64,000 nucleotides of DNA, taken from positions 14,632,001-14,696,000 of the forward strand of contig NC_090340.1 of assembly GCF_035084215.1 (NCBI RefSeq), read 5' to 3'. The notes below the pieces were generated by a model. That model did not search any database, was not told where the DNA came from, and saw nothing but the letters and a program-made list of their open reading frames with translations. The stretch is from Heptranchias perlo (Eukaryota). The position numbers and the translations under genes were made by a program. Of the stretch, positions 4,047 to 63,315 are shown piece by piece (the stretch's first letter is position 1; each line of letters begins with the position of its first letter).

Positions 4047-4447
4047 GCTGCCTTTTACGACCACTGGACGTTCCAAAGAGATTCACAGCCATTGACGTAC
4101 GTTTGAAGTTTAGTCATTGTTACATTGTAGGGAAAAGCAGCAGCAAATTTGGCATAGCAAGGTCCCACAAAGAGCAATGAGAAAAATGAGCAAATAATCG
4201 GTTTTGGTGAAGTGGATTGAGTGATAAATATTATCCAGGACACCGAGGAGAACTTCCCGCTTTTCTTTTATGTTCACTGGAGAGGCCAGATGGGCCTCGG
4301 TTTAAGGTCTTGTTGGAAAGTCGGTTCTTCTGACAGTGCAGTACTGCCATGAAGTATTAGCCTAGATTTGTGCTCAAGTCTCTGGAGTGAGAACTTGAAC
4401 GCACAACTTCCTGACTCAGAGCGAAGAGCTACCACTGAGCCAAGGCT
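4047..4447 (-). mobile_element. tRNA-derived DeuSINE (SacSINE1/AmnSINE1-like)
   Basis: The minus strand has an A box TGGCTCAGTGG and a B box GTTCAAGT, a Deu-domain-like core (ttaaaccgaggcccatctg...tttgtgggaccttgct) and an L2-like tail. Confidence 0.75.
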
Positions 4448-4692
4448 CAAATTTGCATTCGATGTTCAGATTTTACTATTTGAATTATCCTGTAACAAAC
4501 TGAATTAAATATGAAAATTGCTGTGTTAAAAGTATCAGTTTTCCATATTGTCTGCAATTTGGTACCAAAACGTTTTGATTAAATTACATAAGAAACAGCT
4601 GACGAAACCATATTTCTTATCCCCATTCCGTCAATCTTATCTGTGTATATGCTTTGAAGGTGATTTCCTGAATTAATAAAGCATTTTCTTAC

Positions 4693-4806
4693 CTTCAATG
4701 TAAGTTATTTTTATATGGTCCACAATAATATCCGTCAGTGCAAGAATTACCAGAAAACCTATGACAAGCCGACCAATCATGAGGAGCGAATTGATGAAAT
4801 TGTGAT
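4693..4806 (-). pseudogene. Transmembrane exon with intramembrane Arg (activating-type receptor); exon open but gene probably pseudogenised
   Basis: Acceptor ctgcag|, donor GAAG|gtaaga, 114 nt, phase 1-1 like the TM exons of genes A/B. Translation (D)HNFINSLLMIGRLVIGFLVILALTDIIVDHIKITYIE(G). Confidence 0.7.
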
Positions 4807-5995: not shown

Positions 5996-6309
5996 CTGTT
6001 CCAATTTTATCTTGATCAGCCGTGTAGCTGACACTGGCGGGCATCAGCAGAGAGACATGAGATACCAAACAGGTATAAACAACCCCTCTCCGGGCAGGCT
6101 GCACTTCTTCCAAAAAAATAATGGAACCTCCTATAGTCCCGCCACTCTCCTCTTTTTCACAGTTTCTACTCCAGTCAGAATTTCGACACCACCTCTTCGC
6201 CAGGAGATTCCTAAATGTTCCGGGCAAAAGGCAGCCGGTTTACACTCGAGTTTCAGAGAAGTCGGTGAAATCCCTTCAATAGAATCGATTTTCAGGGGGC
6301 TTGGGGAAA
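5996..6309 (-). pseudogene. Decayed Ig C1-set exon paralogous to the C1 of genes A/B
   Basis: PSPLKI..SLKLECKPAAFCPEHLGISWRRGG..AGL* then, after a frameshift, LEEVQP..YTCLVSHVSL. It has a TAG stop at the GLY position and an acceptor mutated to AA; donor ACAG|gttat. Confidence 0.85.
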
Positions 6310-9896: not shown

Positions 9897-11143
9897 TAAA
9901 AGTGACGACGTACGAAGGTAGATTTCACATATCAACTACTCTAAAATGAATATTTCTGCTCTCACTACCGAGATATTCCGACCCATTTATAACATGATTC
10001 CGTGAGGATCTCTGCACTTCAAAATGTCTAACGTATTGCTGTTTGCTGAAATCGGCAATCGCTGTGCCTGTGGCCCCGGACAACGTTGCTTTCCGTTTCA
10101 AGTGATGCACCAGTTATCCTCCCTTTGTGTCACGTGGAACCGTCTCGTTCTCCCTCTGAAGTTTTGTAAAAGAAACAACAGTAAATGTAAAACTGTGCTT
10201 CATTATTTTTAAAAGCGGCATCGCGCCCCGGTGATGATCATAACCATTAGAAATGCGGATCTAGAAAATACACACCCAGAAACCCAGACCTAAGAAAGCA
10301 TACCGCCATAATCTACAAGACACCAGCATCTAAATCCAGCTCCGGTTGCCTCTTTGTGGGTGAACAAACCAAAGCTTGGTGAAATCGGCTTGTAATGTTT
10401 ATCCAAGGGTAAAAAGCGATTTCGCAAGAAATGCTTGGCTGCCACAACCCAATTTTCCCTGTGGTAGCTTTTCGGAAATTCCCTGCTTAAATCCACCTCA
10501 CATGTTTTGTTTAATTTATTTTTCGTCCAGCTCTGATTGAATTGTATTGAATCCATGTATCAAAACGAGAATCACATTGCTCTTGCTTAGCAATACATCG
10601 GGAAATCTATAAAACAGGATTTGATTCAAAGTCTTGCAGATTACGGCACTGTGTAAGACATGCGTTCCATAAAGCATGGTTTAACCCCTTGTGGTCAGTT
10701 TCTATCTTTACTACTTTATATAATACATTTCTAGTGTCTTGCCGTGGCTTGCTACTCATTTGCATTCCCTTACGTCTAAGTGAATGTATTATTGCTTTCA
10801 GTCGGACGTTGTGTCCTTTGGAGAAAACGAGAGAATGGAGTGGGCATCCTGCATAATCTTTGTTGCACCATACTGCATTTGGCGGGTAATTGTTAACCCC
10901 TATGCCCTCGTGGCACAATGACAATGCAGGTTTCTTTTTATATGAGACTTCTTCCTGCTTATGCAACCAACGTTTCTGCAGTGGCTTAAAGTTACAAGTA
11001 TTGAAAGTCCAGTCTGTTCCAACCTATTTCCTGAATCGGCAGACACATGCCCAACGTCATTGCGTCACAATTCGTAATACGCGGTCCGCAACAACCAAAT
11101 CCATGCACAGTGCGGGAGCGATCACCTTACTCCTTTGCTCAGA

Positions 11144-11816
11144 ATGTTGACGAGTTTTGTTTTTTCTCCGAGAGATCATTTACACAGGTACCTACAATTC
11201 TATAACCCAGCTGCCTCGATAAACAAAAACATGTGAAATGGTTTCCTCTGAAATACAATGAAATTTAAATCTCTCCCAATTTTGCTTCTTTCTTTTTTTC
11301 ATCTCCACGTCGTGTCTAATACAATTAACCAAACTTTGAATGTATTTCCTGACAGACGCTTCTAGTATTTCGATCAGTCACAACTTCTTGAACAAGCAAT
11401 TACATTCAGAGGAATACACATCACCTTCGACTGCATATTCTACTGAATATAAATTCAGTGCAATTTATTTCATCTTCGCGATTCTTCTTTATCTCTTTCA
11501 TTTGCAGGTAGAAATGTGTTTTAAAGAGTCTGGTTCTGCGTCCAATGCAATTATCCAAACTTTGCATGTATTTTCTAACATCTGCGGCGCCTATTTCGAT
11601 CTGAGTGGCTCAAATTCCCGAACAGGTGATTGCATTCAGAGGGACACACATCATCTTCGACTGTGTAATCTCCCTCTTTCAAGTCAACTCTTGGATAGAA
11701 GTGCTTTGGTGGAAAAAGGTTGAGAATGAATACCTGCAAAGTGGAACTTATAGCAGAAAATGACTTGGTTTGAAAATTAAAGGAAGCGGTTTCTTTCAGT
11801 TGCTGAACGCGACTTT
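11144..11816 (+). pseudogene. Leader + V pseudogene (copy 1)
   Basis: Leader-like exon 11144-11187 (44 nt, frameshifted) ends ...TTTACACAG|gtacc as in gene A. A partial V start lies at ~11356-11445. A second V at 11582-11816 (AAPISI*VAQIPEQ..FDC..WWKK..*..GFFQLLNATF) has two stops and a dead acceptor and is cut by CR1. Confidence 0.85.
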
Positions 11817-12236
11817 AAGAACCATAAGAAATAGGAGCAGGAGTAGGATACACGGCCCCTCGAGCCTGCTCCGCCATTCAATAAGATCATGGGTGATCTT
11901 CTACCTCAACTCCACTTTCCCACCCTATCCCCATATCCCGTGATTCCCTTAGTGTCCAAAAATCAATCGATCTCAGTCTTAAATATACTCAAGGACTGAG
12001 CATCCATAGTCCTCTGGAGTGCCAAAAATTCACAACTCTCTGAGTGAAGACATTTTCCCTCATCTCGGTCCTCAATGGCCGTCCCCTTATCATGAGGCTA
12101 TGGCTACAAGTTCTAGACTTTCCAGCCAGGGGAAACAGCGTCTCAGCATCTACCCTGTCAAGCCCTTTAAGAATGTTATAAGTTGCAATGAGATCACCTC
12201 TCATTCTTCGAAACTCCTGAAATTATAGGCCCATTT
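11817..12236 (-). mobile_element. CR1 3' end truncating the pseudo-V
   Basis: ORF 11989-12204 MRGDLIATYNILKG; tail aagaaccataagaaataggagcagg. Confidence 0.8.
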
Positions 12237-16021: not shown

Positions 16022-17877
16022 TTAAACAACTAACCATGTTGTTTGGTGGTGGACAATTAAACCATTTGGTGGTGGACAATTAAACAACTAACGGGAGGAG
16101 GAGGCTCTGCAAACACCCCCATCCTCAATGATGGCGGAGTCCAGCACGTGAGTGCAAAAGATAAGGCTGAAGCATTTGCAACCATCTTCAGCCAGAAGTG
16201 ACGAGTGGATGATCCATCTCGGTCTCCTCCCGATATCCCCACCATCACAGAAAACAGTCTTCAGCCAATTCGATTCACTCCACGTGATATCAAGAAACAG
16301 CTGAGTGGACTGGATACATCAAAGGCTATGGGCCCCGACAACATCCCGGCTGTAGTGCTGAAGTCTTGTGCTCCAGAAATAGCTGCGCCTCTAGCCAAGC
16401 TGTTCCAGTACAGCGATAACACTGGCATCTACCCGACAATGTGGAAAATTGCCCAGGTATGTCCTGTCCACAAAAAGCAGGACAAATCCAATCCGGCCAA
16501 TTACTGCCCCATCAGTCTACTCTCAATCATCAGCAAAGTGATGGAAGGTGTCGTCGACAGTGCTGACAAGCGGCACTTACTCACCAATAAACTGCTCACT
16601 GATGCTCAGTTTGGGTTCCGCCAGGACTACTCGGCTCCAGATCTCATTACAGCCTTGGTCCAAACATGGACAAAAGAGCTGAATTCCAGAGGTGAGGTGA
16701 GAGGGACTACCCTTGACATCAAGGCAGCATTTGACCGAGTGTGGCACCAAGGAGCCCTAGTAAAATTGAAGTCAATGGGAATGAGGGGGAAAACTCTCCA
16801 GTGGCTGGAGTCACACATAGCACAAAGAAAGATGGTAGTGGTTGTCGGAGTCCAACCATCTCAGCCCCAGGACATTGCTGCAGGAGTTCCTCAGGGCAGT
16901 GTCCTAGGCCCAACCATCTTCAGCTGCTTCATCAATGACCTTCCCTCCATCATAAGGTCAGAAATGGGGATGTTCGCTGATGATTGCACAGTGTTCAGTT
17001 TCATTCTCTACCCCTCAAATAATGAAGCAGTCCGAGCGCGCATGCAGCAAGACCTGGGCAACATCCAGGCTTGGGCTCATAAGTGGCAAGTTCCATTCGC
17101 TCCAGATAAGTGCCAGGCAATGACCATGTCCAACAAGAGAGAGTCTAACCACCTCCCCTTGACATTCAACGGCGTTAGCATCGCCGAATCCCCCACCATC
17201 AACATCCTGGGAGTCACCATTGACCAGAAACGTAACTGGACCAGCCATATAAATACTGTGGCTACGAGAGCAGGTCAGAGGCTGGGTATTCTGCGGCGAG
17301 TGACTCACCTCCTGACTCCCCAAAGCTTTTCCACCATCTACAAGGCACAAGTCAGGAGTGTGATGGAATATTCTCCACTTGCTTGGATGAGTGCAGCTCC
17401 AACAACACTCAAGAAGCTCGACACCATCCAGGACAAAGCAGCCCGCTTGATTGCCACCCCATCCACCACACTAAACATTCACTCCCTTCACCACTGGCAC
17501 ACAGTGGCTGCAGTGTGTACCATCCACAGGATGTACTGCAGCAACTCGCCAAGGCTTCTTCAACAGCACCTCCCAAACCCGCGACCGCTGCCACCTAGAA
17601 GGACAAGAGCAGCAGGCACATGGGAACAACACCATCTGCACGTTCCCCTCCAAGTCACACACCATCCCCACTTGGAAATATATCGCCGTTCCTTCATCGT
17701 TGCTGGGTCAAAATCCTGGAACTCTCTTCCTAACAGCACTGTGGGAGAACCTTCACCATACGGACTGCAGTGGTTCAAGAAGGCGGCTCACCGCCACCTT
17801 CTCAAGGGCAATTAGGGATGGGCAATAAATGCTGGCCTCGCCAGCGACGCCCACATCCCATGAACGAATAAAAAAAA
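16022..17877 (+). mobile_element. 5'-truncated poly(A)-tailed non-LTR retrotransposon (CR1/L2-group, young family)
   Basis: Open RT ORF; short 3' UTR gggatgggcaataaatgctggcctcgccagcgacgcccacatcccatgaacgaat(A)n. Confidence 0.9.
16205..17815 (+). CDS. LINE reverse transcriptase (partial ORF2)
   Basis: 536 aa: [44 protein letters not shown]. Confidence 0.85.
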   Translation: MDDPSRSPPDIPTITENSLQPIRFTPRDIKKQLSGLDTSKAMGPDNIPAVVLKSCAPEIAAPLAKLFQYSDNTGIYPTMWKIAQVCPVHKKQDKSNPANYCPISLLSIISKVMEGVVDSADKRHLLTNKLLTDAQFGFRQDYSAPDLITALVQTWTKELNSRGEVRGTTLDIKAAFDRVWHQGALVKLKSMGMRGKTLQWLESHIAQRKMVVVVGVQPSQPQDIAAGVPQGSVLGPTIFSCFINDLPSIIRSEMGMFADDCTVFSFILYPSNNEAVRARMQQDLGNIQAWAHKWQVPFAPDKCQAMTMSNKRESNHLPLTFNGVSIAESPTINILGVTIDQKRNWTSHINTVATRAGQRLGILRRVTHLLTPQSFSTIYKAQVRSVMEYSPLAWMSAAPTTLKKLDTIQDKAARLIATPSTTLNIHSLHHWHTVAAVCTIHRMYCSNSPRLLQQHLPNPRPLPPRRTRAAGTWEQHHLHVPLQVTHHPHLEIYRRSFIVAGSKSWNSLPNSTVGEPSPYGLQWFKKAAHRHLLKGN

Positions 17878-20587: not shown

Positions 20588-20642
20588 ATGTCGGCGAGTA
20601 TGGTGTTTCTGTGCTTGACGCTCCGGGGGATTATTTACACAG
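20588..20642 (+). CDS. Gene A exon 1, signal peptide
   Basis: MSASMVFLCLTLRGIIYT, phase 1 donor G|gtacc; identical in gene B. Confidence 0.8.
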
Positions 20643-23600
20643 GTACCTCTTTATTCACAAGAACAGCTACTTTAATTTATAAAACATTTTCCGAAGTCGT
20701 TTCCACATAAATGCAATGAACGTAATTCCTCTATCTAGATTCATTTTTCTCTCTTCCATCTCCATGTCGTATCTAATACAATTATCCCGGATTTGACTAT
20801 TTTCTCTGACAGCTGCGGACCACAGTTCGTTCAGAGTGACTCAAGCGCCCGAACAGGCGATTGTATCCAAAGGGGGAGACATCACCTTCTACTGCATATT
20901 CCCAATCTCTCAAACCCATTCCTGGGTAAGAGTGTATTGGTGGAAACAGGGTGAGGATGAATACCTGCCAAGAAGCGCCGATAAGAGAAAACGATTTGGT
21001 CTGGAAGGTAAAGCGAGAGGTTTCTTTCAGTTAATGCGCGCGACTTTCCAAGACTCTGGAGTCTATCACTGCGCAGTGATCCGAGAGGGAATAGTTGGAG
21101 GAAATGGAACCGGATCACATCTCATTGTGCATGGTAAGTGTGAAACACCACAGAGCGGGACTGTCGCAAACATATCAAACATAACAAAGGGGAATGTTTT
21201 GTGATTGTTTTATTGTAGTTTTTGACAGTATAAACATTTCTGCGATCACATTTCGCGAGAATGTTAAGTTGCATTTTCGTGTTCTCTATATAGAACTACC
21301 AATTTGAGAGTAAAATATAACCCTCCACACTGAGAGTACAGCAAAATGTTTAAATGATAAGCAATTGGCCTGTAACTCCAAATAAATTTATACACCAGAT
21401 ATCTGACAGCGGAAGTTCAGAACAAATTCCAAGCTTATAACTGAGTGAAAATGGTTTATATTAACACGCTTCCCCCACCATATACACGGCTCTTAGCCCA
21501 TTTTGAATGGTCTGTCTGCTCCCATCTCCGTCTCTAGGGTTTAACACTCTTGAAATTAATTCTCACATCATGTTTGGCTCGTTAGCGTCACGGATTTGAA
21601 AGCCAGCGTGCAACTAACTGTTGATTAACGGATTCACTTAACAAACTGGAGCTTGGAATTCACAACGTTGTCGCCTCACTAACCCCCAATAAATACAATA
21701 CGCCGGAACTGTGTTGCTGAAACCTCCTGAGGTTCAACCGAATATAGTTCGTTTCACCAATCTTCATGCTTCGGCTGTGAGATCAGTCCGATACCTGCTA
21801 ATGCCCTCCTTTTATCATCGCAATGTGCAGATCACTCGTCACTTTCTAACTGAGTAAAAAAAATGGAGGACTGGGCGCGCCAACTTTCCCCCAGGGTTTA
21901 TTTGTTTAATTCTTTGGACGATGAAACGTGACATTGATTAGCAATCGTTGCGAGGCGTCTGCTGAGTAACTCAAAGTGCATGTAACGCAGTGCATGTAAA
22001 CAAATGCCGGTGACGATGAGTGATATGGATGAGGTGTGTGTTGACGATCTGCCTAACATTAACAGGACAGGAGACTGTGCTTTAGAATGTTGCTGTTAGA
22101 ATAAAATGGACCGATGGTAAATAAGAATCATATTTAATTTCTCCCAATGGTGCCCAGTAACTCGATTTTGTTCATTCTCTGTTCCGCAGCTCCCCCAACT
22201 CCACTGAAGATTGTCTCCAGGACAGCTGAGGGGAATTCATCTGCGACTCTGACTCTTGTGTGTGAAACGGCTGAGTTTTATCCGGAGAATTTCACCCTCG
22301 CTTGGTATAAAAACGGCGTTGTAATTGCAACAGGAATAAATACCATTAAACGGCAGAACACTGAGGGGCTGTATGAAGTTTCCAGCTCTTTGGAAGAGAC
22401 GCAGTATGTCCCGAGCGGCACGAATTATACCTGTGTGATATCTCACGTCTCGCTCAAGACTCCAGCTATTGTCACCTATAGTGTTACGAAATCTAACCAA
22501 GGTACGAGGCCAACAGTCCAAGAGGATAGTTAAAATCGCAAACAGATATATCGTATAGTTTGCAAACAAATATATTGTAGAGCTTGTATTGATAATCATG
22601 AAGATATTTCGCTGGAAACGCATGGGAAATAATCACAAAAACATAAAATTCTTGTTTTAATGTATAATATAATTGAACCCAATGTGTTGTAAAACGGGGT
22701 TATATCGTCCATAGCACAAATTTTGTGTCAAACCTTATTTGCCTTCAACTTCCTCTATTTTACGTATAACGAATGGAAACAGGAGTTTATCTTTTGTATC
22801 CCATTATATTTCTCTCCTGCTTAGTATTAATACATCTTCGGGTTTTTTTCCGTTTTAAATGGTTTCATTCTTTACCACTGCCGGCTTTCCCTGCATCAGG
22901 ATAATTACCATGAGCTGCAGTGAACTTTTTTTTATTCGTTCATGTGATGTGGGCGTCGCTGGTAAGGACAGCATTTATTACCCATCCCTAATTGCCCTTG
23001 AGAAGGTGGTGGTGAGCCGCCTTCTAGAAAGGCTGCATTCCGTGTGGTGAAGGTTCTCCCACAGTGCTATTAGGTAGGGATTTCCAGGATTTTGACCCAG
23101 CAGCGATGAAGCAACCGCGATATATTTCCAAATCGGGATAATGTGTGACTTGGAGGGGAACGTGCAGGTGGTGTTGTTCCCATGTGCCTGCTGCTCTTGT
23201 CCTTCTAGGTCGCGGGTTTGGGAGGTGCTGTCCAATGAGTCTTGGCGAATTACTGCAGTGCATCCTGTGGATAGTACACAATGCAGACACGGTGCGCCGA
23301 TGGTGAAGGGAGTGAATGTTTAGGGTGGTGGATGGGGCGCCAATCATGCGGGCTGCTTTGTCCTGGATGGTGTCAAGCTTCTTGAGTGTTGTTGGAGCTG
23401 CACTCATCCAAGCAAGTGGAGAGTATTCTATCACACTCCTGACTTGTGCCTTGTAGATGGTGGAAAGGCTTTGGGGAGTCAGGAGGTGAGTCACTCGCCG
23501 CAGAATACTCACCCTCTGACCTGCTCTTGTAGCCACAGTATTATGTGGCTGGTCCAGTTAAGTTTCTGGTCAATGGTGGCCCCCAGGATGTTGATGGTGG

Positions 23601-26600
23601 GGCATTCGGCGATAGTAATGCCGTTGACTGTCAAGGGGAGGCGGTTAGACTCTCTCTTGTTGGAGATGGTCGCTGCTTGACACTTGACAGGTGCGAATGT
23701 TACTTGCTACTTATCAGCCCAAGCCTGGATGTTGCCCAGGTCTTGCTGCACGGACCGCTTCATTTTCTGAGGGGTTGCAAATGGAATGGAACACTGTTCA
23801 ATCATCAGCGAACATTCCCATTTCTGACCTTATGATGGAGGGAAGTTCATTGATGAAGCTGTTGAAGATGGTTGGGCCTAGGACACTGCCCTAAGGAACT
23901 GCTGCAGCAATGTCCTGGGACTGAGATGATTCACCTCCAACAACCACTGCCATCTTCCTTTGTGCTGGTATGACTCCAGCCACTGGAGAGATTTCCCCCT
24001 GATTCCCATTGACTTTAATTTTACTAGGGCTCCTTGATGCCACACTCATTTAAATGCTGCCCTGATGTCAAGAGCAGTCCCTCCCATCTCACCTCTGGAA
24101 TTCAGCTCTTTTGTCCATGTTTGGACCAAGGCTGTAATGAGGTCTGGAGCCGAGTGATCCTGGCGGAACCCAAACTGAGCATCGGTGAGCAGGTTATTGG
24201 TGAGTAAGTGCTGCTTGATAGCACTGTCGACGACACCTTCCATCTCCTTTCTGATGATTGAGAGTAGACTGATGGGGCGGTAATTGGCCGGCTTGGATTT
24301 GTCCTGCTTTTTGTGGACTGGCCATACCCAGGCAATTTCCCACATTGTCGGGTTCATTCCACTGTTGTTGCTGTACTGGAACAGTTTGGCTAGAGGCGCG
24401 GCTATTTCTGGAGCACAAGTCTTCAGCATTACAGCCGGGATGTTGTCGGGGCCCATAGCCTTTGCTGTATCCAGTGCACTCAGCCGTTTCTTGTTACCAC
24501 GTGGAGTGAATCGAATTTGCTGAAGACTGGCTCCTGTGATGGTGGAGATATCGGGAGGAGGCCGAGATGGATCATCCACTCGGCACTTCTGGCTGAAAAT
24601 GATTACTTGCTTAATTGCTCTCGGACTTCTCTCCTTTTTTATATTCGTTCACGGGACGTGGGCGTCGCTGGCGGGCCAGCATTTTATTGCCCATCCCTAA
24701 TTGCCCTCGAGAAGGTGGTGGTGAGCCGCCTTCTTGAACCGCTGCAGTCCGTGTGGTGACGGTTCTCCCACAGTGCTGTTAGGAAGGGAGTTCCAGGATT
24801 TTGACCCAGCGACAATGAAGGAACGGCGATATATTTCCAAGTCGGGATGGTGTGTAACTTGGAGGGGAACATGCAGGTGGTGTTGTTCCCATGTGCCTGC
24901 TGCTCTTGTCCTTCTAGGTGGTAGAGGTCGCGGGTTTGGGAGGTGCTGTCGAAGAAGCCTTGGCGAGTTGCTGCAGTGCATCCTGTGGATGGTGCACACT
25001 GCAGCCACAGTGCACCGGTGGTTAAGGGAGGGAATGTTTAGGGTGGTGGATGGGGTGCTAATCAAGCGGGCTGCTTTGTGTTGGATGGTGTGGAGCTTCT
25101 TGAGTGTTGTTGGAGCTGCACTCATCCAGGCAAGTGGAGAGTATTCCATCACACTCTTGACTTGTGCCTTGTAGATGGAGGAAAGGCTTTGGGGAGTCAG
25201 GAGGTGAGTCACTCGCCGCAGAATACCCAGCCTCTGACCTGCTCTCGTAGCCACCGTATTTATATGGCTGGTCCAGTTAAGTTTCTGGTCAATGGTGACC
25301 CCTAGGATGTTGATGGTGGGGGATTCGGCGATGGTAATGCCGTTGAATGTCAATGGGAGGTGGTTAGACTCTCTCTTGTTGGACATAGCCATTGCCTGGC
25401 ACTTATCTGGCGCAAATGTTACTTGCCACTTATGAGCCCAAGCCTGGATGTTGTCCAGGTCTTGCTGCATGCGGGCTTGGACTGCTTCATTATTTGAGGG
25501 GTTGCGAATGGAACTGAACACTGTGCAGTCATCAGCGAACATCCCCATTTCTGACCTTATGATGGAGGGAAGGTCATTGATGAAGCAGCTGAAGATGGTT
25601 GGGCCTAGGACACTGCCCTGAGGAACTCCTGCAGCAATGTCCTGGGGCTGAGATGGTTGGACTCCGACAACCACTACCATCTTTCTTTGTGCTATGTGTG
25701 ACTCCAACCACTGGAGAGTTTTCCCCCTGATTCCCGTTGACTTCAATTTTACTCGGGCTCCTTGGTGCCACACTCGGTCAAATGCTGCCTTGATTTCAAG
25801 GGCTGTCACTCTCACCTCACCTCAGGAATTCAGCTCTTTTGTCCATGTTTGGACCAAGGCTTTAATGAGGTCTGGAGCCGAGTGGTCCTGGCGGAACTCA
25901 AACTGAGCATCGGTGAGCAGTTTATTGGTGAGTAAGTGCCGCTTGATAGCACTGCGGACGACACCTTCCATCACTTTGCTGATGATTGAGAGTAGACTGA
26001 TCGGGCGGTAATTCCCTGTTGACAGTTCTCAACCCTGACAGCAACCCCCTAACCACCCCTGCCCCCACCCAATTCGGCTACCACTAGTGCAGAGTTCTGA
26101 AATTAAATCTCTGTCCAACTTGTAGGCCACATCTCTCCATGCCACCGCGGGTTCGATTGGGACGATTGTCACAAATCTCATGTAAACTGTACCCGCAAAT
26201 TGGCGACATTGCAGCCGGTTCAATATATAATTGTATTAAAAACTCTTAGCTTTGCCAGACAATAATTAATAAACCATCGCCCGTTGATTTCCTTCACTAT
26301 TCAGTGACATTCTTACTTCAATAAACACAGTGCGGATCATTGAATGAGGGTTATTAACCAATTGCTGCAATCCAGAATTTTGTGCGGGCAGCGAGTAAAC
26401 CCGTGTGAACAAATTCCCCCCGATTTCCTCAAACTATATGTTAATGAATAAGAATGGTCAAGGACATAAAGAAGTCATTCTGTCCAGGGAAATTTCTCCC
26501 CCTCATATTCGAACTCTGCGAAAACAATGTGTTGAGATCCCTAAACGGTCGTCACCTTCGCAGATTATTCCAGAATATCTCATCCACTCGATGAAGAAGT

Positions 26601-28310
26601 CACTTCAAATAAGATATCTAAAAAAAATAAGTATTTTTTATTTAGACTGCCTTATTATCGTTCTATACAGCGGAATTACTGAAAGCATCAATAGTTTAAA
26701 CAATTAACGATCTTTCGGCCTCTTTTTAGCAAACGCCCGCCATAACATAATGTTCCTATTAATCTTGCAGCTGGTGTCATTGATGTGTCCTTTTACTTCT
26801 GGGTGCCTATTTGTGCGGTGGCTGGATTGGTGTTTCTAGTGCTCATGGTCTTCATTGGGAGGCGGTGCGGATTGCAGAATAATGAAGGTAAGTTGATTTT
26901 AGTCCGAAACCTCAAGGTTAGTGAGAGTCTCTGGGTAATACACGGGAAGGAGAATTCGATTAGGACTTAAAGTTGAAGGCAATGTTATGTGTTTTCAAGG
27001 ATTGTTCCAACTGCACATTAAAACGCAGAAATCCTCACAGAATCATATTAAAATTGGAGATAATTATCTGGATATTTGTAACAGAAAGTTATAATTTGCA
27101 GCAAGTGATAAATCAACTGTGCTCTGACACACAGTCACTTTCCAACCCATTACGTTGTGGATGCGTAATGACTTTGAATGAAAACATGTGAGGCCCCGGC
27201 CCGGCAATGGTTTTACACCGTTGTTAATCGCTGCAGGGGCTGGGATTCAAACACTGTCAGCATAATCTGAAATTGAAAATTATGTTCGGCTTTGTACCGA
27301 CTCTAGAAATGTCTTTGAAATCACTGAATGGAAACTGAATAACTGTCAATCTTTCAATATCATTAAATTTCATTCGTTTCCAGGTAAACAGGAACGTGTA
27401 ATGGGACCGACCCGCCGTGAAGAGCTGGTACGTTCATTCATTCATTCTCTGCAGACGGTTCAAATGCGAAGAAAGATTGCTATAATGGAGAGATATTATC
27501 ACAATACTGCCAGAACAGTTCAAGTATATTTACCAAAAGCGTTTGTCCGGCTTAGTGAATCATTCAAATCGTGGTTAGAAAAGTATTTGGCAACCGGTGC
27601 GTTGCTGCCAAAAACGTTAGATAGCCGACAAGAAAACTGCTAGTTTCGTTTAAAATGTACCTCGTTAATAACTGTTTATAGAGTCATCTATTGTCTGTAT
27701 TTGAACAAATACTTTATGTTCTAAAACTGCCGCTTATTTAAACATTCCTGTAACACAGTGTTGTAGAGTGAATATTGACAGGTTTAAATATTAGTTATAG
27801 TGACCACAGCACACATCAGCTTTAATATTCGTACTTATGCCAATATATTAATTATGCTTTGTGCACTTGATCTCTTGCCCAGCTCATTTTGTTTAATGTT
27901 TCGTCAGCAGTACGTAAATTGGTGAAGGCAACGACTAGCCAAGTAACCGAATATTTGCTTTCTGGCCCGTGCAGGGAGCAGAAGCTGAGATCGTGCATTA
28001 TGTTGCATTAGATTTGAGCAAAGACATGAAAATTCCAAGACGTAAAGGTGAAGAGCAGAGGACCGTGTACGCTCAGGTAAGGCAGAGTAACAGATCAGAG
28101 AAACATAGATCATCAGCTGAACAGCAACATTCATGCGATGGTGGGATATTTAAGGTTGTGCTTTGATCTTGTATTGTATCTAAAGCTATTTGTGTATTAT
28201 TCTGATGGCTGCTTGGAGCAGCAGTCCACAAAACTTGCAATACGTCCAATCAACAATATTTCCAAACATTGGCTTTACAGAAACACAAGGGACAGCCCGT
28301 GACAAGCTGA
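20588..28310 (+). CDS. Gene A: non-rearranging IgSF receptor L-V(J)-C1-TM-ITIM, SIRP-alpha-like, ~326 aa with a truncated tail
   Basis: Exons 20588-20642, 20813-21133, 22190-22501, 26771-26887, 27384-27427, 27975-28076 and 28281-28310. All introns are GT-AG with compatible phases (1,1,1,1,0,0). Confidence 0.85.
20813..21133 (+). CDS. Gene A exon 2, Ig V-set domain with J-like G strand
   Basis: VTQAP..ITFYC..VYWWKQ..FQDSGVYHC..GNGTGSHLIV; gacag| acceptor and G|gtaagt donor. Confidence 0.92.
22190..22501 (+). CDS. Gene A exon 3, Ig C1-set domain
   Basis: LTLVCETAEFYPENFTLAWYKNG..GLYEVSSSL..YTCVISHVSL, a classic C1 pattern. Confidence 0.92.
22926..24600 (-). mobile_element. Poly(A)-tailed LINE (same family as 16022-17877) in intron 3 of gene A
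   Basis: ORFs 24046-24579 and 23024-23536; poly-T plus the family 3' UTR at 22926; frameshifted. Confidence 0.9.
24633..26013 (-). mobile_element. Second LINE copy of the same family in intron 3 of gene A
   Basis: ORF 24697-25815 (372 aa RT) and the same 3' UTR. Confidence 0.9.
26771..26887 (+). CDS. Gene A exon 4, uncharged transmembrane segment
   Basis: FYFWVPICAVAGLVFLVLMVFIGRR; ttgcag| acceptor and GAAG|gtaagt donor. Confidence 0.85.
27384..27427 (+). CDS. Gene A exon 5, cytoplasmic
   Basis: 44 nt, GKQERVMGPTRREEL, ttccag| and |gtacgt; same length in gene B. Confidence 0.75.
27975..28076 (+). CDS. Gene A exon 6, ITIM exon
   Basis: GAEAEIVHYVALDLS...EQRTVYAQ; VHYVAL fits the ITIM consensus. 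Confidence 0.82.
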
Positions 28311-28453
28311 CGGACGCAATTCTAGCATTGACTGGCTCAGTGAAAAGTGCGCAATGCAAAAATGACGAAAGAAGCACCGACTATGCCCAGCTACAAACGC
28401 AAAGCCAAAATAGAGTAACAGAGGCTGTTTACTCCGAAGCAAGAATCAAATAG
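28281..28453 (+). CDS. Gene A exon 7 (frameshifted; stop at 28308-28310, ancestral stop at 28453)
   Basis: 1 nt shorter than gene B just after the acceptor, giving KHKGQPVTS*. AATAAA at 28774-28779. Confidence 0.65.
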
Positions 28454-48302: not shown

Positions 48303-48962
48303 ATGTTGACGAGTTTTGTATTTCTCCTGAAGATCATTTACACAGGTACCTACAATTCTATAACCCAGCTGCCTCGATAAACAAAAACATGTGAAATGGT
48401 TTCCGCTGAATCACCATGAAATTCAAATCTCTCCCAATTTTGCTGATTTCTTTGTTTCATCCTCACGACGTATCTAATAAAATTAACCAAACTTTGAATC
48501 TATTGCCTCACAGCCGCTTCTAATATTTCGATCAGTCACAACTTCTTGGACACGCGATTAGATTCCGAGGGACACACATCACCTACTGTATATTCCACTC
48601 AACACAAATTCAGTGAAATTTAGTTAATCTTCGCGATGCTTCTTCACCTCTTACATTTGTAGCTAGAAGTGTCTTCCAAAGTGTTTGGTTTTGCGTCCAA
48701 TGCAATTAACCACGGATATTTTCTAACATCTGCGGCGCGTACTTCGATCAGAGTGGCTCAAATTCCCGAACATGTGATTGCATTAAGAGGGACAGACATC
48801 GTGTCCTACTGTGTAATCTCCCTCTCTCAGGACAACTCTTGAATAGACGTGTGTTGGTGGAAACAGGTTGAGAATGGACCTGCAAAGTGTAACGGATAAC
48901 AGAAAATGATTTGGTCTGAAAGTTAAAGAAGGCGGTTTCTTTCATTTGCTGAACGCGACTTT
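48303..48962 (+). pseudogene. Leader + V pseudogene (copy 2)
   Basis: Leader 48303-48345 MLTSFVFLLKIIYT (phase 1). Frameshifted partial V from 48514. Second V at 48730-48962 has a stop and frameshift and is cut by CR1 at the same site as copy 1. Confidence 0.85.
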
Positions 48963-51237
48963 AAGATAAGAACATAAGAAATTGGAGCAGGAGTAGTCTA
49001 TAAGGTTCGCTCGAGCCTGGTCCGCCATTCAATAAGATCATGGTTGATATTCTACCTCAACTCGACTTTCCCACCCTATCCCCATTTCCCCTGATCCCCT
49101 TAGTTTACAAATATCCATCGATCTCAGCCTTAAATATACTCAAAGACACAGCATCCACAGTCCTCTGGCAAAGAGCATTCCAGAGATTCACAATATTCTA
49201 AGTGAAGAAATTTCTCCTCATCTCGGTCCTAAATGGACGACCCCTTATCTTGACACTATGATCTCTAGTTCTAGACTCTCCAGCCAGGTGAAACAGCCGC
49301 TCAGCATCTATCCTGTCAAGCCCTCTAAGAATTTTATACGTTTCAATGAGATCACCTCTCATTCTTCCAAACTCCAGAGAATATAGGCCCATTCTACTCA
49401 ATCTATCCTCATAGGACAACCCTTTTGTCCCAGGAATCAATCTGGTGAACCTTCCTTGCACCGTTTCTAAGCAAGGTACATCCTTACGTAAGGAGACCAA
49501 AACTGTACACAATTCTTCAAATGTGGTCTCACTGGAGCCCGATATAATTGCAAGACTTCCTTACTCTTATACTCCTACCCCCTTCCAATAACATATTGTT
49601 TGCCTTCCTAATTGCTTGATTATCCTACATGTTGACTTTCTGTGATTCATGTACATGGACAGACAAATTCCCATGATTATCAATATTTCTGGGTCTGTTT
49701 TTCTATTCTTCCTACCAAAGTGGATAATTTCACATTTATCGGCGTCATCCTCCATCTGCCACCTTCTTACGTCCTCCTTGCAGTTTACTTTCCAACCTAA
49801 CCTATACATTAGACTCGGTCCCCTCATCTGAGTCATTAATATATATTGTAAACAATTGAGGCCCAAGCACTGATCCTTGTGGCACCCCACTAGGTACAAC
49901 CTGCCAACCTGAAAATTAGCCGTTCATTACTACTCTCTGATTTCTTTCCGTTAGCCAATCCTCAATCCATGCTAATCTGTTGCTCCCAATCTCATGATCC
50001 CTAATCTTGTGGTAACAACCTGTTGAGTGGTATCTTATCAAATGCCTTTTGGAAATCCAATTATTACATCCACTGATTCTCCCTTATCTACCCTGCTAGT
50101 CACACCCTCAACAGATTCTAACAAATTTGTCAAACACGATTTCCCTTTCACACAACCGTGTTGACTCTGCCGAATCATATTATCATTTTCTAAGTACCCT
50201 GTTACCACGTCTTTAATAATAGATTCCAGCATATTTCCGACTACTGATATCAGGCTAACTGGCCTATAGTTCCCTATTTTCTCTCTCCCTCCTTTCATGA
50301 AAAGCGGGGCTACATTTGCCACCTTCCAATCCACGGGGACCATTCCACAATCTTGGGAAATCTGGAAGATCAAAACCAATGTATCAACTATCTCTGTAGT
50401 TACCTTTTTTAAAACCCTAGGATGTAGGCCATCAGGTCCAGGGGATTTGTTGGCTTTTAGTCCCAATAATTTATCCAATACTTTTTCTTTACTAATCTTA
50501 ATTATTTTGTGTTCATCACTCTCATTGGACCCTTGTTTTTCCATTATTTCCGGTATGTTTTTTGTGTCTTCTATTGTGAAGACCGATGCAAAATATTTGT
50601 TTAATGTCTCTGCCATTTCCTTGTTCCCCATTACAATTTCTTCTGTCTCTGCCTCAAAGGGATCCAAGTTTACTTTTGTTAACCTCTCCCTTTTTACATA
50701 CTTGTAGAATCTCTTACAATCTATTTTCATATTCCTTGCTAGTTTGCTCTTATATTCAATTTTCTCCCTCTTTATCAATTCCTTGGTCACCCTTTACTGA
50801 TTTCCAAAACCCTCCCAATCCTCAGGTTTACTACTATTTTTTGGCAACATTGTGAGCCTCTTCTTTTAATCTAATACTATCCTTAAATTTTCTAGTTAGC
50901 GACGGTTGGATCACTTTTCCCATGGGATTTTTATTTCTTAAGGGAATGTATACTTATTGAGAATTATGAATTATTGCTTTAAATGTTCGTCATTGCTTAT
51001 ATACCATCATATCTTTTAATGTCATGTCACAATCTACCTTATTCAACTTGCCCCTCATACCGATGTAAAAGGCTTTGTTTAAATTTAAGACCCGAGTTTC
51101 AGACTTAACCAGATCATTCTCGAACTCAATATGAAGTTCTGTTATATCATGACCACGCTCCCCCAGAGGATCCTTAACTATATGATTGCTAATTAAACTT
51201 GTCTTATTACACAATACTAGATCTAAAATAGCCTGTG
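48963..51237 (-). mobile_element. CR1 ORF2 (~2.3 kb, degenerate)
   Basis: ORFs 50038-50790 (KSPGPDGLHPR, NYRPVSL) and 49198-49512. Confidence 0.85.
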
Positions 51238-52140: not shown

Positions 52141-55100
52141 ATGTCGGCGAGTATGGTGTTTCTGTGCTTGACGCTCCGGGGGATTATTTACACAGGTACC
52201 TCTTTATTCACAAGAACAGCTACTTTAATTTATAAAATGTTTCCGAAGTAATTTCCACATAAACGAAGTGAAAGTAATTCCTCTCTCTCGATTCATTTTC
52301 TCTCTCTTCCATCTCCATGTCGTATCCAATAAAACTAACCCGTACTTGACTAAATTTTCTGACAGCTGCGGACCACAGTTCGTTCAGAGTGACTCAAACG
52401 CCCAAACAGGCGACTGTATCCATAGGGGGAAATATCACCTTCTACTGCATATTCCCCATCTCTCAAACCCATTCCTGGGTAAGAGTGTATTGGTCGAAAC
52501 AGGGTGAGGATGAATACCTGCACAGAAGGGGCGATAAGAGAAAACGATTTGGTCTGGAAGGTAAAGCGAGCGGTTTCTTTCAGTTACGGAACGCGACTTT
52601 CCAAGACTCTGGAGTCTATCACTGCGCAGTGATCCGACAGGGAACAGTTGGAGAAGATGGAAACGGATCGCATCTAATTGTGCATGGCAAGTGTGAAACA
52701 CCGGAGAGCGGGACTGTCGTAAACATATCAAACATAACAAACGGGAATTTTTTTGTGATTTGCTTTATTGTACAGTTTCTGACAGTATAAACATTTCTAT
52801 GAACACTTTTTGCGAGATAGATAAGTTTTATGTTCGTGTTCTCTGCATAGAACTGCCAATTAGGTAGTACAATATAACCCTCCACACGCAGGGTACTGTA
52901 AAATGTATCAATGTTAAGCAATTGGACTGTAACTCCAAATAAATTTATACACCAGAGGTTTGATAGCGGAATTTCGGAAAAAAAATTCAAGCTGAATGAA
53001 AATTGTTTATATTAATGCGCTTTCCCCACTATAGACACGGTTGTTAGCCCATTTTGGCTGCTCTGTCTGCCCCCATCGCTGCCTCTGGGGTTTGACATTC
53101 TTGAAATTAATTCTCACATGATGATTGGCTCGTTAGCGTCACGGATTTGAAAGCCAGCGTCCAACTAACTGTTGATCAACGGATTCACTCAACAAAGTGG
53201 AGCTCGGAATTCACAACGTTGTCACCTCACTAACCTCCAATAATTACAATAATACGCAGGAACTGTGTTGCTGAAATCTCCTGATATAGTTTCTTTCACC
53301 AATCGTCATGCTTCGGCTGTGAGATCTGTCCGATACCGACTAATGCCCTGGTTTTATCATCGGCAATGTGTAGATTACTCGATTACTCGTCACTGTCTAA
53401 CTGAGTAAAAAAATGGAGGACTGGGCGCGCCAACTTTACCCAGGGTTTATTTCTTTAATTCTTTGGACTATGAAACGCGACATTGATTAGCGATTGTTGC
53501 GACGTGTCTGCCGTGTAACTCAAAGTTTTGGACTCGATGGTGCATGTAAAATTGAACAGATACCGGTGACGATGAATGATATGGATGAGGTGTGTGTTGA
53601 CGATGTGCCGAACTTTAACAGGACAGGCGGCCGTGTTTTGGAATGGTGCTGTTTTAATAAAATGGACCGAAGGTAAAGAATCATATTTAATTTCTCCCAA
53701 TGGTGCCAAGTAACTCGACTTTGTTCATTGTCTGTTCCGCAGCTCCCCCAACTCCACTGAAGATTGCCTCCAGGACAGCTGAGGGGAATCCATCTGCGTC
53801 TCTGACTCTTGTGTGTGAAACGGCAAAGTTTTTTCCGGAGAATTTCACCCTCGCTTGGTGTAAAAACGGCGTTGTAATTGCAACAGGAATAAATACCATT
53901 AAACGGCAGAACACTGAGGGGCTGTATGAAGTTTCCAGCTCTTTGGAAGAGACGCAGCCTGTCCCGATCGGCGCCAATTATACCTGTTTGGTATCTCATA
54001 TCTCCCTCCAGACTCCTGCTGTTGTGACCTATACTGTTACGAAATCTGAACAAGGTACGAGGCCAACAGTCCAAAAGAGCAGTTAAAATCGCAAACAGCT
54101 ATTTCGTAGAATTTGTACATATTGACAATCATGAAGATAGTTCACGGGAAACTCATGGGAAATATCAACGAATACATAAAATTCTTGTTTTATTGTATAA
54201 TATAATTGAACTCGATGTGTTGTAAAACACGGTTATATCGTCCGGTACACAAATATTCTCAGTCAAATCTTATTTGCCTTCAACTTCCTCTATTTCAGGA
54301 ATAACAAATATAAACAGGAGTTTATCTTTTGTATCCCATTATATTTCCTCTCCTGCTTATTATTAATACTTTTACGGGTTTTTTTTCTATGTTAAACTGG
54401 TTTTATTCTTTACCACTGCCGGCTTTCCCTGTATCAGGACAATTACCAGGAGCTGCAGTGGACGTGTTTGCTCTTTGGCTTCTTCCAATGCAGTTCTCAA
54501 TCCTGTGAACCCCCCTTCCCCTTCCGGCTACGTCTGGTGCACAGTTCTGAACTGAAATCTCTGTCCAACTTCTACCCCACATCTCTTCATGCCACAGCGG
54601 GTTCGATTGGGACCTCTCTCATAAATCTCATGTAAACTGTACCCTCAACTTGGTTACAGTGCAGCCGGTTCACTATATCATTTGATTAACAATTCTTAGC
54701 TTTGCCAGACAATAATTAATAAACCGTCGCCCGTTGATCTCCTTTACTCGTCAATGACATTTTTACTTTAATAAATACAGTGCGGATAATTGAATGAGGG
54801 TTATTAACCAATTGCTGCAATCCCGAATTTTGTTCGGGCAGCGAGTAAACCCGTGAGAACAAATTCCCCCCACCGATTTTCTCAAACTATATGTTAATGA
54901 ATAAGAATGGTCAAGGACATGGACAAGTCATTCGGTCCAGGGAAATTTATCCCCTTCATTTTCTAATTTTCCTAAAACATTGTTTTGTGATCCCTAAACG
55001 GTAGTCACCTTCGCAGATTAATCCAGAACGTCTCATCTATTCGATGAAGGAGTTACTTCAAATGTTATATCTAAAAAAATAACGTTTTTTTATTTACACT

Positions 55101-56815
55101 TTCTTATTTTTGTTCTGTACAGCGGAATGACTGAAAGCATCAATAGTTTAACCAATACACTATCGTGCGGCCTCTTTTTAGCAAACGCCCGTCACAACTT
55201 AATGTTCCTATTAATCTTACAGCTAGTGTCATTTACTTCTGGGCTCTTGGGTGTGCGATGGGTGGATTGGCGTTTCTCGTGCTGATGATCGTCATTGGGA
55301 AGCGGTGCCGTCTGCAGAATAAAGAAGGTAAGATCTACTGTAAAAGCTTGATTTTAGACGAAACCTCAGGGTGAGAGTCTCCGGGTAACAGAGAGGAAGC
55401 AGAACTCGATTTTAACTTAAAGTTGAAGGCAATGGTTTCTGTTTTCAGGGAGCGCAGATTGTTCCAACTACACGTTAAAACGCAGAAATCCTCACATAAT
55501 TGTATTAAAATTTGCGATCATTATCTGGATGTTTGCAACAGAAATTGACAATATACAGCAAGTGATAAATGAACTGTGCCCTGGCACACAGTCACTTTCC
55601 AACCCATTACTTTGTAGGTGCGTAATGAGTTTGAGTGAAACCGTGTGAGGCCCCGGTCCTGGAATGGTTGTGCACCGTTGTTAATCGCTACAGGGGTTGG
55701 GATTCAAACATTGTCAGCACAAACTGAAATTGAAAATTATGTTCGCTTTCTACCGAATCTAGAAATTTCTTTGATATCGCTGAATGGAAACTGAGTAAAT
55801 TTGTCAATCTTTCAATTTAATTTAATTGGTTTGCAGGTGAAGAGGGGCGTGTAATGGGACCGACCCGCCATGAAGAGCTGGTACGTTCATTCATTCATGC
55901 TCTGCAGAGGGTTCAAATGTGAAGAAAGATTGCTTTCATGGAGAGATGTTATCACAATCATGTCAGTACGTTAGGTGGCGGACAAGAAAACTGCCAGTTT
56001 CGTTTAAAATGTACCTATGTTTTAACGGTTTATAGATTAATCTATTCCTTTAATTTGAAAAAATTACTTTTATGTTCTAAAGCGGCCTTTCATTCAAACA
56101 TTTCTGTAACACAGTGTTGTAGAGCGTATACTGACAGGTTTAAATATTAGTTATAGTGACCACAGCACTCATTGGTCTCAATATTCTTACTTATGCCAAT
56201 ATATTAATTATGCTTTGTGCACTTGATCTCTAGCCCAGGTCATTCTGCTCAATGTTTGGTAAGCAGTTCTTAACCTGGTGAAGGCAATGAACTAGGTACG
56301 TAATCAATCATTTGCTTTGTGGCCCATGCAGGGAACAGAGGCTGAGATCGTGCATTATGCTGCATTAGATTTGAGCAAAGCCAGGAAAACTCCAAGACGT
56401 AAAGATGAAGAGGAGAGGACCGTGTACGCTCAGGTAGGGATGAGTAACAGATCAGAGAAACATAGATCATGAGTGTAACACCAACATTCATGCGATAGTG
56501 GAGTATTTCGGGTTGTGCTGACTTTGATCGTGTGATGTATCTAAAGCTATTTGTGTATTATGCTGATGACTGTTTAGAGCAGCAGTCCACAAAACTTGCA
56601 AAACGACCAATCAACAATATTTCCAAACATTGGCTTTACAGAACAAACAAGGGGCAGCCCGTGACAAGCTGACATACGCAACGCTAGCATTGACTGGCTC
56701 AGGGAAAAGGGCGCAATACAAAAATGACGAAAGAAGCACCGACTATGCCGAGCTACAAACGCAAAACCAAAGAAGAGTAACAGAGGCTGTTTACTCCGAA
56801 GCAAGAATCAAATAG
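52141..56815 (+). CDS. Gene B: non-rearranging IgSF inhibitory receptor L-V(J)-C1-TM-ITIM, SIRP-alpha-like, ~370 aa
   Basis: Exons 52141-52195, 52366-52686 (GC donor), 53743-54054, 55223-55327, 55837-55880, 56332-56433 and 56642-56815. The spliced frame is open for 1113 nt; AATAAA at 57152-57157. Confidence 0.85.
52366..52686 (+). CDS. Gene B exon 2, Ig V-set domain
   Basis: ITFYC..VYWSKQ..DSGVYHC..GEDGNGSHLIV. Confidence 0.9.
53743..54054 (+). CDS. Gene B exon 3, Ig C1-set domain
   Basis: LVCETAKFFPENFTLAWCKNG..YTCLVSHISL. Confidence 0.9.
55223..55327 (+). CDS. Gene B exon 4, uncharged transmembrane segment
   Basis: VIYFWALGCAMGGLAFLVLMIVIGKR; 12 nt shorter than in gene A, frame kept. Confidence 0.85.
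56332..56433 (+). CDS. Gene B exon 6, ITIM exon
   Basis: GTEAEIVHYAALDLSKARKTPRRKDEEERTVYAQ. Confidence 0.82.
56642..56815 (+). CDS. Gene B exon 7, ITIM/ITSM-like terminal exon
   Basis: NKQGAARDKLTYATL...STDYAELQT...AVYSEARIK*. Confidence 0.82.
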   Translation, partial: NKQGAARDKLTYATLALTGSGKRAQYKNDERSTDYAELQTQNQRRVTEAVYSEARIK

Positions 56816-62933: not shown

Positions 62934-63228
62934 CTGCACCAACCGCGCTGAAGATTCTCTCCAGGACATCTGTATCTCTGACTTGTGTGTGAAACGGCTG
63001 AGGTCTATCCGAGAAATTCCACCCTCCCTCGGTATGAAAATGGCGTAGTAACTGCGATAGGAATACAAAACATTCAATGGCAGATAACTGAAGTGCTGTA
63101 TGACGTTTCCTGCTCTTTGGAAGAGACGCAGCCTGTGCCGAGCGGTGCCAGTTACACCTGTTTGGTATCTCACATGCCGCTCGAGACTCCACCTGTGGTC
63201 ATCTACACGGTTACCAATTCTAACACAG
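62934..63228 (+). pseudogene. Orphan C1 pseudo-exon with a homologous upstream intron (from ~62470)
   Basis: Acceptor mutated to CAA, 15-nt and 2-nt deletions, and the invariant W replaced by R. Retains CETAE.YP..LEETQPVP..YTCLVSH and the G|gtacga donor. Confidence 0.85.
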
Positions 63229-63315
63229 GTACGAGGCCAACAGTCCAAGAAGGAGAGCCAGCTACTGTTAAATTCTTAAACAGATATTTCATAAAGTTCG
63301 CTCATATTAATAATA

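What the first reader, a model, noticed from the sequence alone, without database searches (positions are those of the whole stretch)
56332..56815. SIRP-alpha-like tail: two ITIM + TxYxx tyrosine pairs
Gene B has VHYAAL...TVYAQ and LTYATL...TDYAEL, plus AVYSEA. From memory, human SIRP-alpha has ITYADL/TEYASI and LTYADL/SEYASV, the tandem-tyrosine layout that engages both SH2 domains of SHP-1/2. The ectodomain here has one C1 rather than two, so it may be an ancient or convergent SIRP-type receptor.
Basis: partly seen in the sequence, partly recalled or inferred. Interest (0 to 1): 0.7.

Follow-up and report, generated by a model that had tools for sequence, protein, structure and literature searches.

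The report
Shark paired immune receptor, SIRP-like tail
This spliced shark gene encodes a two-domain antibody-like surface receptor whose tail carries repeated tyrosine motifs that likely switch immune cells off; it belongs to a large cartilaginous-fish receptor family with likely 'on' and 'off' members that resembles SIRP-alpha but is probably not its direct counterpart.

Summary
The motifs are real and lie in two spliced exons (56332-56433, 56642-56815) of a 7-exon, 370-aa leader-VJ-C1-TM-tail gene; contigs bridge five of its six junctions. Two ITIMs are genuine. The SIRP likeness is looser than claimed: splicing makes the first partner TVYAQN (no hydrophobic pY+3), the second is TxYxxL, and AVYSEA is no motif.

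The tail is a duplicated module, ITIM plus a tyrosine 23 residues on. It is found in sharks, rays and chimaera: 41 of 81 non-redundant tails, spacing 23 in 51 of 60 modules, 1-4 copies. Six of 81 instead have a transmembrane arginine, likely activating partners.

SIRP-alpha is the best non-antibody PDB hit, but only level with antibody chains (56 bits); a true skink SIRP scores 209. The tandem layout is generic to many inhibitory receptors.

Verdict: a likely SHP-1/SHP-2-recruiting inhibitory member of a chondrichthyan paired VJ-C1 receptor family. It works like SIRP-alpha inside the cell; SIRP membership is not shown. RefSeq already auto-names paralogs 'SHPS-1-like'; ten library searches found no description of the family.

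The parts
52141..52195 (+). Gene B exon 1, leader peptide (phase 1 end)
   Evidence: Protein identical to the leader of RefSeq paralogs P0001/P0002; GT donor. The leader-V junction was not among the joints listed.
52366..52686 (+). Exon 2, V-set domain with J-like G-x-G strand in the same exon; compact C'-D region; ends on a GC donor
   Evidence: Pfam V-set E 2.8e-11; model pLDDT 88. V-C1 joint in run X2 with 0 differences but only 28 letters on the V side, under the tool's 31-letter bar; the long bridging contig in X3 is a paralog.
53743..54054 (+). Exon 3, single C1-set domain
   Evidence: Pfam C1-set E 9.7e-11. FFP, 13 residues between Cys and Trp, and xVxH read from the sequence match the hallmarks in PMC2785349.
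55223..55327 (+). Exon 4, uncharged transmembrane segment
   Evidence: C1-TM joint in 3 of 3 runs; hydropathy
55837..55880 (+). Exon 5, membrane-proximal tail spacer
   Evidence: Joints on both sides; equals P0007
56332..56433 (+). Exon 6, tail module 1: ITIM Y288 plus Y311 (TVYAQ, whose +3 residue N comes from exon 7)
56434..56641 (+). Intron 6 (GT..AG), inside the finding's span
   Evidence: Joint 56430>56639 (cut +3) in runs X1 and X3
56642..56815 (+). Exon 7, tail module 2: ITIM Y325 plus TxYxxL Y348, then Y364 at the place where a third module starts in relatives, and stop
   Evidence: Aligns without gaps to exon 6, score 46 reached by 2 of 5,000 shuffles; 16-residue offset matches third modules in P0015, P0034, P0049
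20588..28453 (+). Gene A, tandem paralog; a one-base-shorter last exon shifts the frame and removes module 2
   Evidence: Model equals RefSeq P0002 exactly
4692..4805 (-). Arginine-bearing transmembrane exon of a likely activating-type paralog, beside a broken C1 exon at 5997-6320
   Evidence: 71% identical to P0039 over 38 aa; translation

Best explanation
Gene B is a spliced VJ-C1 membrane receptor that likely acts as an inhibitory immune receptor, predicted to recruit SHP-1/SHP-2 through a duplicated ITIM-plus-tyrosine tail module, within a cartilaginous-fish family that likely pairs inhibitory with activating members and is probably not the SIRP lineage. Shown: exon structure, splicing of five of six junctions, domains, module conservation, arginine-TM relatives. 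Inferred steps: (1) the V domain binds a cell-surface ligand, most likely a self marker or a pathogen mimic of one, as for other paired receptors; (2) Src-family kinases phosphorylate the tail; (3) module 2 (Y325 plus Y348, 23 apart) is the main two-point dock for the tandem SH2 domains, with alanine at pY+1 allowing SHP-1 as well as SHP-2; (4) Y288 is a second ITIM while Y311 is a weak site; (5) arginine-TM paralogs signal the opposite way through an FcR-gamma/CD3-zeta-type adaptor.
For: Joints in contigs. Of 81 non-redundant family TM-plus-tail sequences, 41 carry one or more modules; spacing is 23 in 51 of 60 modules; pY+1 is Ala in 44 of 60; the partner's +3 residue is V/L/I in 30 of 37 last modules but Thr in 15 of 23 internal ones. 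Modules occur in chimaera (P0012, P0016), rays (P0020, P0013) and sharks (P0004, P0029, P0021). Ala at ITIM pY+1 favours SHP1, with bivalent binding (PMC8631942 passages). [quoted passage not shown] Arginine-TM forms in 6 of 81, 5 of them named sharks plus a sixth, as in LILRA/FcR-gamma coupling (PMC10679719 passages). All 59 hits of the family profile at E<=1e-12 are chondrichthyan. Control: skink SIRP P0158 hits SIRP-alpha at 209 bits, 100 above the next non-SIRP; shark P0001 at 55.8 bits, rank 4 of 33, level with IgH and UrIg2. The family V profile scores the two skink SIRP V domains 16 and 24 bits against up to 56 for reptile multi-V receptors; the C1 profile scores SIRP C1 32-33 against up to 52-55 for other C1 proteins.
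Against: No binding or signalling was tested. SIRP-alpha is still the top non-antibody PDB match, over V and C1 together (rank 6 of 6,806, E 1.5e-26). Sharks are more distant from mammals than a skink, so the control overstates the expected score, and it rests on one SIRP protein. 40 of 81 tails have no module (24 short or motif-free, 6 arginine-TM, 6 long without motif, 4 ITIM only), many probably truncated models. 4 of 81 have a lysine inside the hydrophobic stretch, closer to the SIRP-beta/DAP12 style (style recalled). Gene B has 13 private ectodomain substitutions against 6 and 6 in two paralogs and dN/dS near 1 against gene A. All three runs are one sample, and their RNA status is the tool's guess.
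Confidence: 0.6

Rival explanations
1. The family is the chondrichthyan branch of the SIRP family: a one-C1 form that kept the four-tyrosine tail and may bind CD47.
For: V-C1 order, J-like strand and C1 hallmarks shared with SIRP-alpha. SIRP-alpha and SIRP-gamma are the best non-antibody PDB hits of the profile. Tail spacing 23/14/23 against 24/17/26. Clustered paired genes. RefSeq names many members 'SHPS-1-like' or 'SIRP-beta-1-like'.
Against: No V- or C1-specific affinity to a true SIRP. RefSeq names are scattered: tapasin-related, CD276, B7-H6, lambda light chain, MHC II. Module number varies from 1 to 4. The commoner activating-type TM has an outer arginine. PMC13262535 places the SIRP family at Tetrapoda (table passage).
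Confidence: 0.25
2. The family is inhibitory, but gene B is a recent duplicate under relaxed selection that is still transcribed; its tail is inherited rather than needed.
For: GC donor on the V exon where gene A has GT. 13 private substitutions including W62S, an unpaired Cys (Y165C) and loss of the family's glycosylation site at 116. A TM exon 12 bases shorter than gene A's (105 against 117). dN/dS 1.11 (V) and 0.99 (C1) against gene A. The RefSeq model skips the V exon. Several broken copies lie nearby.
Against: Open frame over 370 codons with canonical Cys and Trp kept. Gene-B-type C1-TM junction contigs with 0 differences in 3 of 3 runs. Exons diverge 7-8% against introns 9-13%. All four module tyrosines intact while gene A lost module 2. 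dN/dS near 1 on 5-6 synonymous changes cannot separate relaxation from diversifying selection.
Confidence: 0.1
3. It is a B7-H6-like or tapasin-related V-C1 ligand whose tail signals back into the ligand-bearing cell.
For: V-C1-TM layout; RefSeq names; Atlas structure neighbours CD276 and tapasin-related at TM 0.83-0.84, above SHPS-1 at 0.70.
Against: J-like strand; B7-type V domains score only 13-29 bits with the family V profile; paired inhibitory and arginine-TM forms are receptor features.
Confidence: 0.05

Closest known systems
SIRP-alpha (SHPS-1, CD172a)
   Same: V then C1 ectodomain; two ITIMs each followed 23-26 residues later by a second tyrosine; Ala at pY+1; clustered genes with opposite-signalling members.
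   Different: One C1 instead of two; first partner lacks the pY+3 hydrophobe; 1-4 modules in relatives; no domain-level affinity to a true SIRP; CD47 binding and synteny untested.
PD-1, BTLA, Siglec-type ITIM/ITSM receptors
   Same: One ITIM-plus-partner unit that binds both SH2 domains of SHP-1/2 (PMC8631942 passages); the V fold ties with PD-1 (Z 14.2, rmsd 1.9, 101 aligned).
   Different: Adds a C1 domain, repeats the unit, and forms a large multigene cluster.
UrIg/UrIg2 and tetrapod non-rearranging VJ-C1 genes (PRARP and kin)
   Same: Pre-joined VJ exon followed by C1; UrIg2 is the top PDB hit of the C1 exon and of P0001.
   Different: UrIg2 has nine C1 domains, and its paper has no mention of ITIM (PMC12227049).
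LILRA/LILRB-type paired receptors; skate MDIR; teleost NITR
   Same: Inhibitory ITIM forms paired with short-tailed arginine-TM forms (LILR: PMC10679719 passages); multigene families.
   Different: LILRs use C2 domains; MDIRs are CD300/TREM/pIgR-like (PMC3031540 passages); NITR is V-I (recalled). None is VJ-C1.

Membership tests
SIRP | N-terminal V-set domain with J-like strand | tested here: met
   Pfam V-set; G-x-G strand in the V exon, family pattern
SIRP | Two C1-set domains (SIRP-alpha type) | tested here: not met
   One C1 exon spliced straight to TM in 3 of 3 runs; no second C1 exon by tblastn. One relative, P0048, is V-C-C.
SIRP | V and C1 sequences closer to SIRPs than to other Ig-superfamily domains | tested here: not met
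   Power limited by one control SIRP and by deeper divergence; SIRP-alpha remains the best non-antibody whole-protein hit.
SIRP | Groups with SIRP V domains in a tree or by fold | tested here: inconclusive
   41-row V tree: SIRP on a long branch (2.05), unrooted, deep forks open. Fold rows tied within 1-2 Z.
SIRP | Two ITIMs in the tail | tested here: met
   Y288 and Y325
SIRP | Both partner tyrosines ITSM-like with hydrophobic pY+3 | tested here: not met
   Spliced Y311 has Asn at +3; Y348 has Leu; SIRP-alpha motifs
SIRP | Binds CD47 | not testable with these tools
   Needs a binding assay
SIRP | Synteny with the tetrapod SIRP cluster | not testable with these tools
   No genome held; no flanking marker gene seen in the window
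ITIM-bearing inhibitory IgSF receptor | Type I membrane protein, uncharged TM, conserved ITIM plus partner tyrosine | tested here: met
ITIM-bearing inhibitory IgSF receptor | Phospho-dependent SHP-1/SHP-2 recruitment and inhibition | not testable with these tools
   Inferred from motifs only
Paired receptor family | Related ectodomains with ITIM tails or charged TM and short tails, in one cluster | tested here: met
   41 module-bearing and 6 arginine-TM forms of 81; members of a species mostly share one longest-contig length, which suggests but does not show one cluster; an arginine-TM exon lies in this window
MDIR (skate) | CD300/TREM/pIgR-like domains without C1 | tested here: not met
   C1-set domain present; MDIR description; MDIR sequences were not compared

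The most novel reading that the evidence does not exclude
Cartilaginous fish keep a large, undescribed cluster of non-rearranging VJ-C1 paired receptors, present in chimaeras, rays and sharks, that is the surviving sister group of tetrapod SIRPs and close to the VJ-C1 precursor of antigen receptors, and that tunes inhibitory strength by copying a tail exon one to four times.
Probability: 0.2. Interest if true: 0.8.

Novelty: new variant of a known kind. Interest (0 to 1): 0.48.

Why it matters
The tail alone is ordinary. The family is the interesting part. [quoted passage not shown] A chondrichthyan-wide paired VJ-C1 cluster gives a direct synteny and ligand test of SIRP origin, and candidate inhibitory and activating receptors for shark NK-like or myeloid cells. 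It also shows that the automatic RefSeq names for these genes are unreliable.

Tried and rejected
Window genome: none held, so no synteny.
Fold searches of the V model: SIRP was not among the rows shown (at most 50 each); rows are tied among VNAR, NCAM, VL, PD-1, CD79b and NKp30. Not used as evidence.
PDB sequence search with the V exon alone: SIRP not among the best 60 of 175 shown.
Homodimer prediction of P0001 residues 20-228: no answer, score 0.01, alignment not used.
V-domain tree: deep forks unresolved, long SIRP and B7-like branches.
Pfam: no family for the two tail exons.
Read-through isoform ending after exon 6, which would give a canonical TxYxxV: no contig listed for it; contigs drop rare forms, and any phase-0 donor gives Val.
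Run search: no holder on record as RNA.
Earlier scan notes: nothing by place or sequence.
Reptile multi-V ITIM receptors (P0125, P0174, P0094): best outside V scores, but no C1, tyrosine spacing 18, tail profile 6 bits or less; kept as a lead only.
P0172, named 'SIRP-beta-1-like', looks B7-like (no J-like strand) and was not used as a SIRP control.
Literature: ten searches listed no paper describing this family; (SIRP+shark+ITIM+cartilaginous) gave 0. The held supplement of PMC3964593 has 0 hits for SIRP, ITIM or CD47. Subscription papers on shark NKp30, VJ-C1 genes, PRARP and innate-receptor origins (recalled) were not seen and could hold a description.

Full report
Observation. They lie in two phase-0 exons, 56332-56433 and 56642-56815, separated by a GT..AG intron. 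These end a 7-exon gene from 52141 to 56815 that encodes 370 aa: leader, V, C1, TM, spacer and two tail exons. From C1 to the stop my model equals RefSeq protein P0007. The paralog at 20588-28453 (gene A) equals XP_067853518.1 of Heptranchias perlo, so the window is very likely from that shark.

Splicing. Contigs of three coded runs (one sample; RNA status is the tool's guess, but they skip GT..AG introns) bridge V-C1, C1-TM, TM-spacer, spacer-exon 6 and exon 6-exon 7. The exon 6-7 joint has 100 letters on its short side in 2 of 3 runs. The C1-TM joint of gene B type has 0 differences in 3 of 3. The V-C1 joint crosses a GC donor; the contig matching gene B exactly has only 28 letters on the V side, under the tool's 31-letter bar, and the long bridging contig is a paralog. 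The leader-V joint was not listed. RefSeq's model drops leader and V and starts at an exon near 41883, probably because of the GC donor (inference).

What the motifs are. Y288 and Y325 are ITIMs. Y311 sits three codons before the donor, so its +3 residue is Asn from exon 7. Y348 is TxYxxL. Y364 is neither. Spacings are 23, 14 and 23, against 24, 17 and 26 for the SIRP-alpha positions printed in bioRxiv 10.1101/2021.08.06.455421 (passage). Shuffling the tail gives two such pairs in 1 of 100,000, a test defined after the fact. Exon 6 aligns without gaps to exon 7 (score 46, reached by 2 of 5,000 shuffles), so the 2x2 layout likely arose by exon duplication.

Family. Searches found 5, 43 and 59 relatives; every named one is a shark, ray or chimaera. 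A profile search of 1.84 billion representatives added more (best 150 listed). I named 20 of these: 13 chondrichthyan, 7 multi-domain proteins of reptiles, a frog and a goby. Of 208 stored proteins, 134 pass 65 bits with the family V or C1 profile (best outsider 56); 97 of these have a TM by my hydropathy cut, which dropped borderline cases such as P0009; 81 remain after removing 90% duplicates. Many of the 81 are unnamed and are assigned by score only. Of the 81, 41 have at least one module (24 one, 16 two, 1 four), 6 have an outer-TM arginine followed by a D/E-H motif, 4 have an ITIM only, 24 are short or motif-free and 6 are long without motif. Spacing is 23 in 51 of 60 modules. The partner's +3 residue is V/L/I in 30 of 37 last modules and Thr in 15 of 23 internal ones, so the weak first partner is a family trait. 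The window holds an arginine-TM exon at 4692-4805 on the minus strand.

Mechanism. Shown: structure, splicing, conservation. [quoted passage not shown] Arginine-TM paralogs would couple to an FcR-gamma-type adaptor as LILRAs do (PMC10679719 passages). The ligand is not identified; a self marker or a pathogen mimic is the usual case for paired receptors (own knowledge).

Is it a SIRP? For: V-C1 order, C1 hallmarks (PMC2785349 passages), similar tail, and SIRP-alpha as best non-antibody PDB hit, rank 6 of 6,806 with the profile and 4 of 33 with P0001. Against: that score (55.8 bits) is level with IgH and UrIg2, whereas a skink SIRP scores 209 bits and its V alone 79.5. The family profiles score skink SIRP V at 16 and 24 bits and SIRP C1 at 32-33, below reptile multi-V receptors (up to 56) and other C1 proteins (up to 52-55). 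There is one C1, a variable module number, and arginine-type activating candidates, though 4 of 81 carry a TM lysine. The tree and fold searches were inconclusive. The control is one protein from a closer lineage, and synteny was not testable. So it likely works like SIRP-alpha inside the cell, but membership is not shown.

Gene B itself. It has 13 private ectodomain substitutions against 6 in each of two paralogs and dN/dS near 1 against gene A on few sites. Diversifying selection and relaxation both fit.

Novelty. Paired ITIM/arginine Ig-superfamily families are a known kind, and RefSeq already gives these genes automatic SIRP-like and other names. Ten library searches listed no description of the family; subscription papers were not seen. 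Papers were read as term-matched passages only (PMC11599192, PMC2785349, PMC10751288, PMC8631942, PMC12151841, PMC13262535, PMC9652883, PMC12227049 with abstract and outline, PMC11372145, PMC6795676, PMC10679719, PMC3031540, the bioRxiv preprint above); for PMC3964593 only a term search of the held supplement. Other supplements were not seen and may list these genes. Verdict: new variant of a known kind, interest 0.48.

Noticed in passing
window 28281-28453 (+), gene A last exon: One base shorter than gene B's at its start, shifting the frame so the tail ends after module 1 (RefSeq P0002 agrees); in the dead frame the second ITIM tyrosine codon has become Asp.
   Followed up: yes
window 3887-6320 (-): Relic of a likely activating paralog: broken C1 exon (5997-6320, stop and frameshift), intact arginine-TM exon (4692-4805), and a stretch like the P0039 tail (3887-4042).
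   Followed up: partly
window 11578-11820 (+), 48711-48966 (+), 62976-63233 (+), 10212-10286 (-): Further broken family pieces: two V pseudo-exons, a C1 relic and a TM-like relic; birth-and-death pattern.
   Followed up: no
window 52687 and 41883: Gene B's V exon ends on a GC donor; RefSeq's model skips leader and V and starts from a small exon near 41883, so the annotation likely misses the V domain.
   Followed up: partly
run X1, record 4: A contig with P0001-like changes in the TM exon and exon 6 but no difference from gene B over 56639-56748: another allele, a further paralog, gene conversion or an assembly mosaic.
   Followed up: no
proteins P0125, P0174, P0094, P0128 (turtles, viper): Reptile multi-V receptors with J-like strands, ITIM tails or an arginine TM give the best outside V scores (up to 56 bits); a possible tetrapod relative under misleading names.
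   Followed up: partly
gene B V domain, 52366-52686: Short C'-D region without a clear C'' strand in the model; shark VNAR structures lead the Foldseek list, probably a shared compact shape rather than kinship.
   Followed up: partly
proteins P0069, P0093, P0144, P0168: A subgroup with a lysine inside the hydrophobic stretch; two have ITIM tails, two are short.
   Followed up: no
window 596-2554, 16202-17815, 24697-25821 and others: Long ORFs that look like reverse transcriptases of LINE or Penelope-type elements (recalled look, not searched) and many retroelement fragments between the genes.
   Followed up: no
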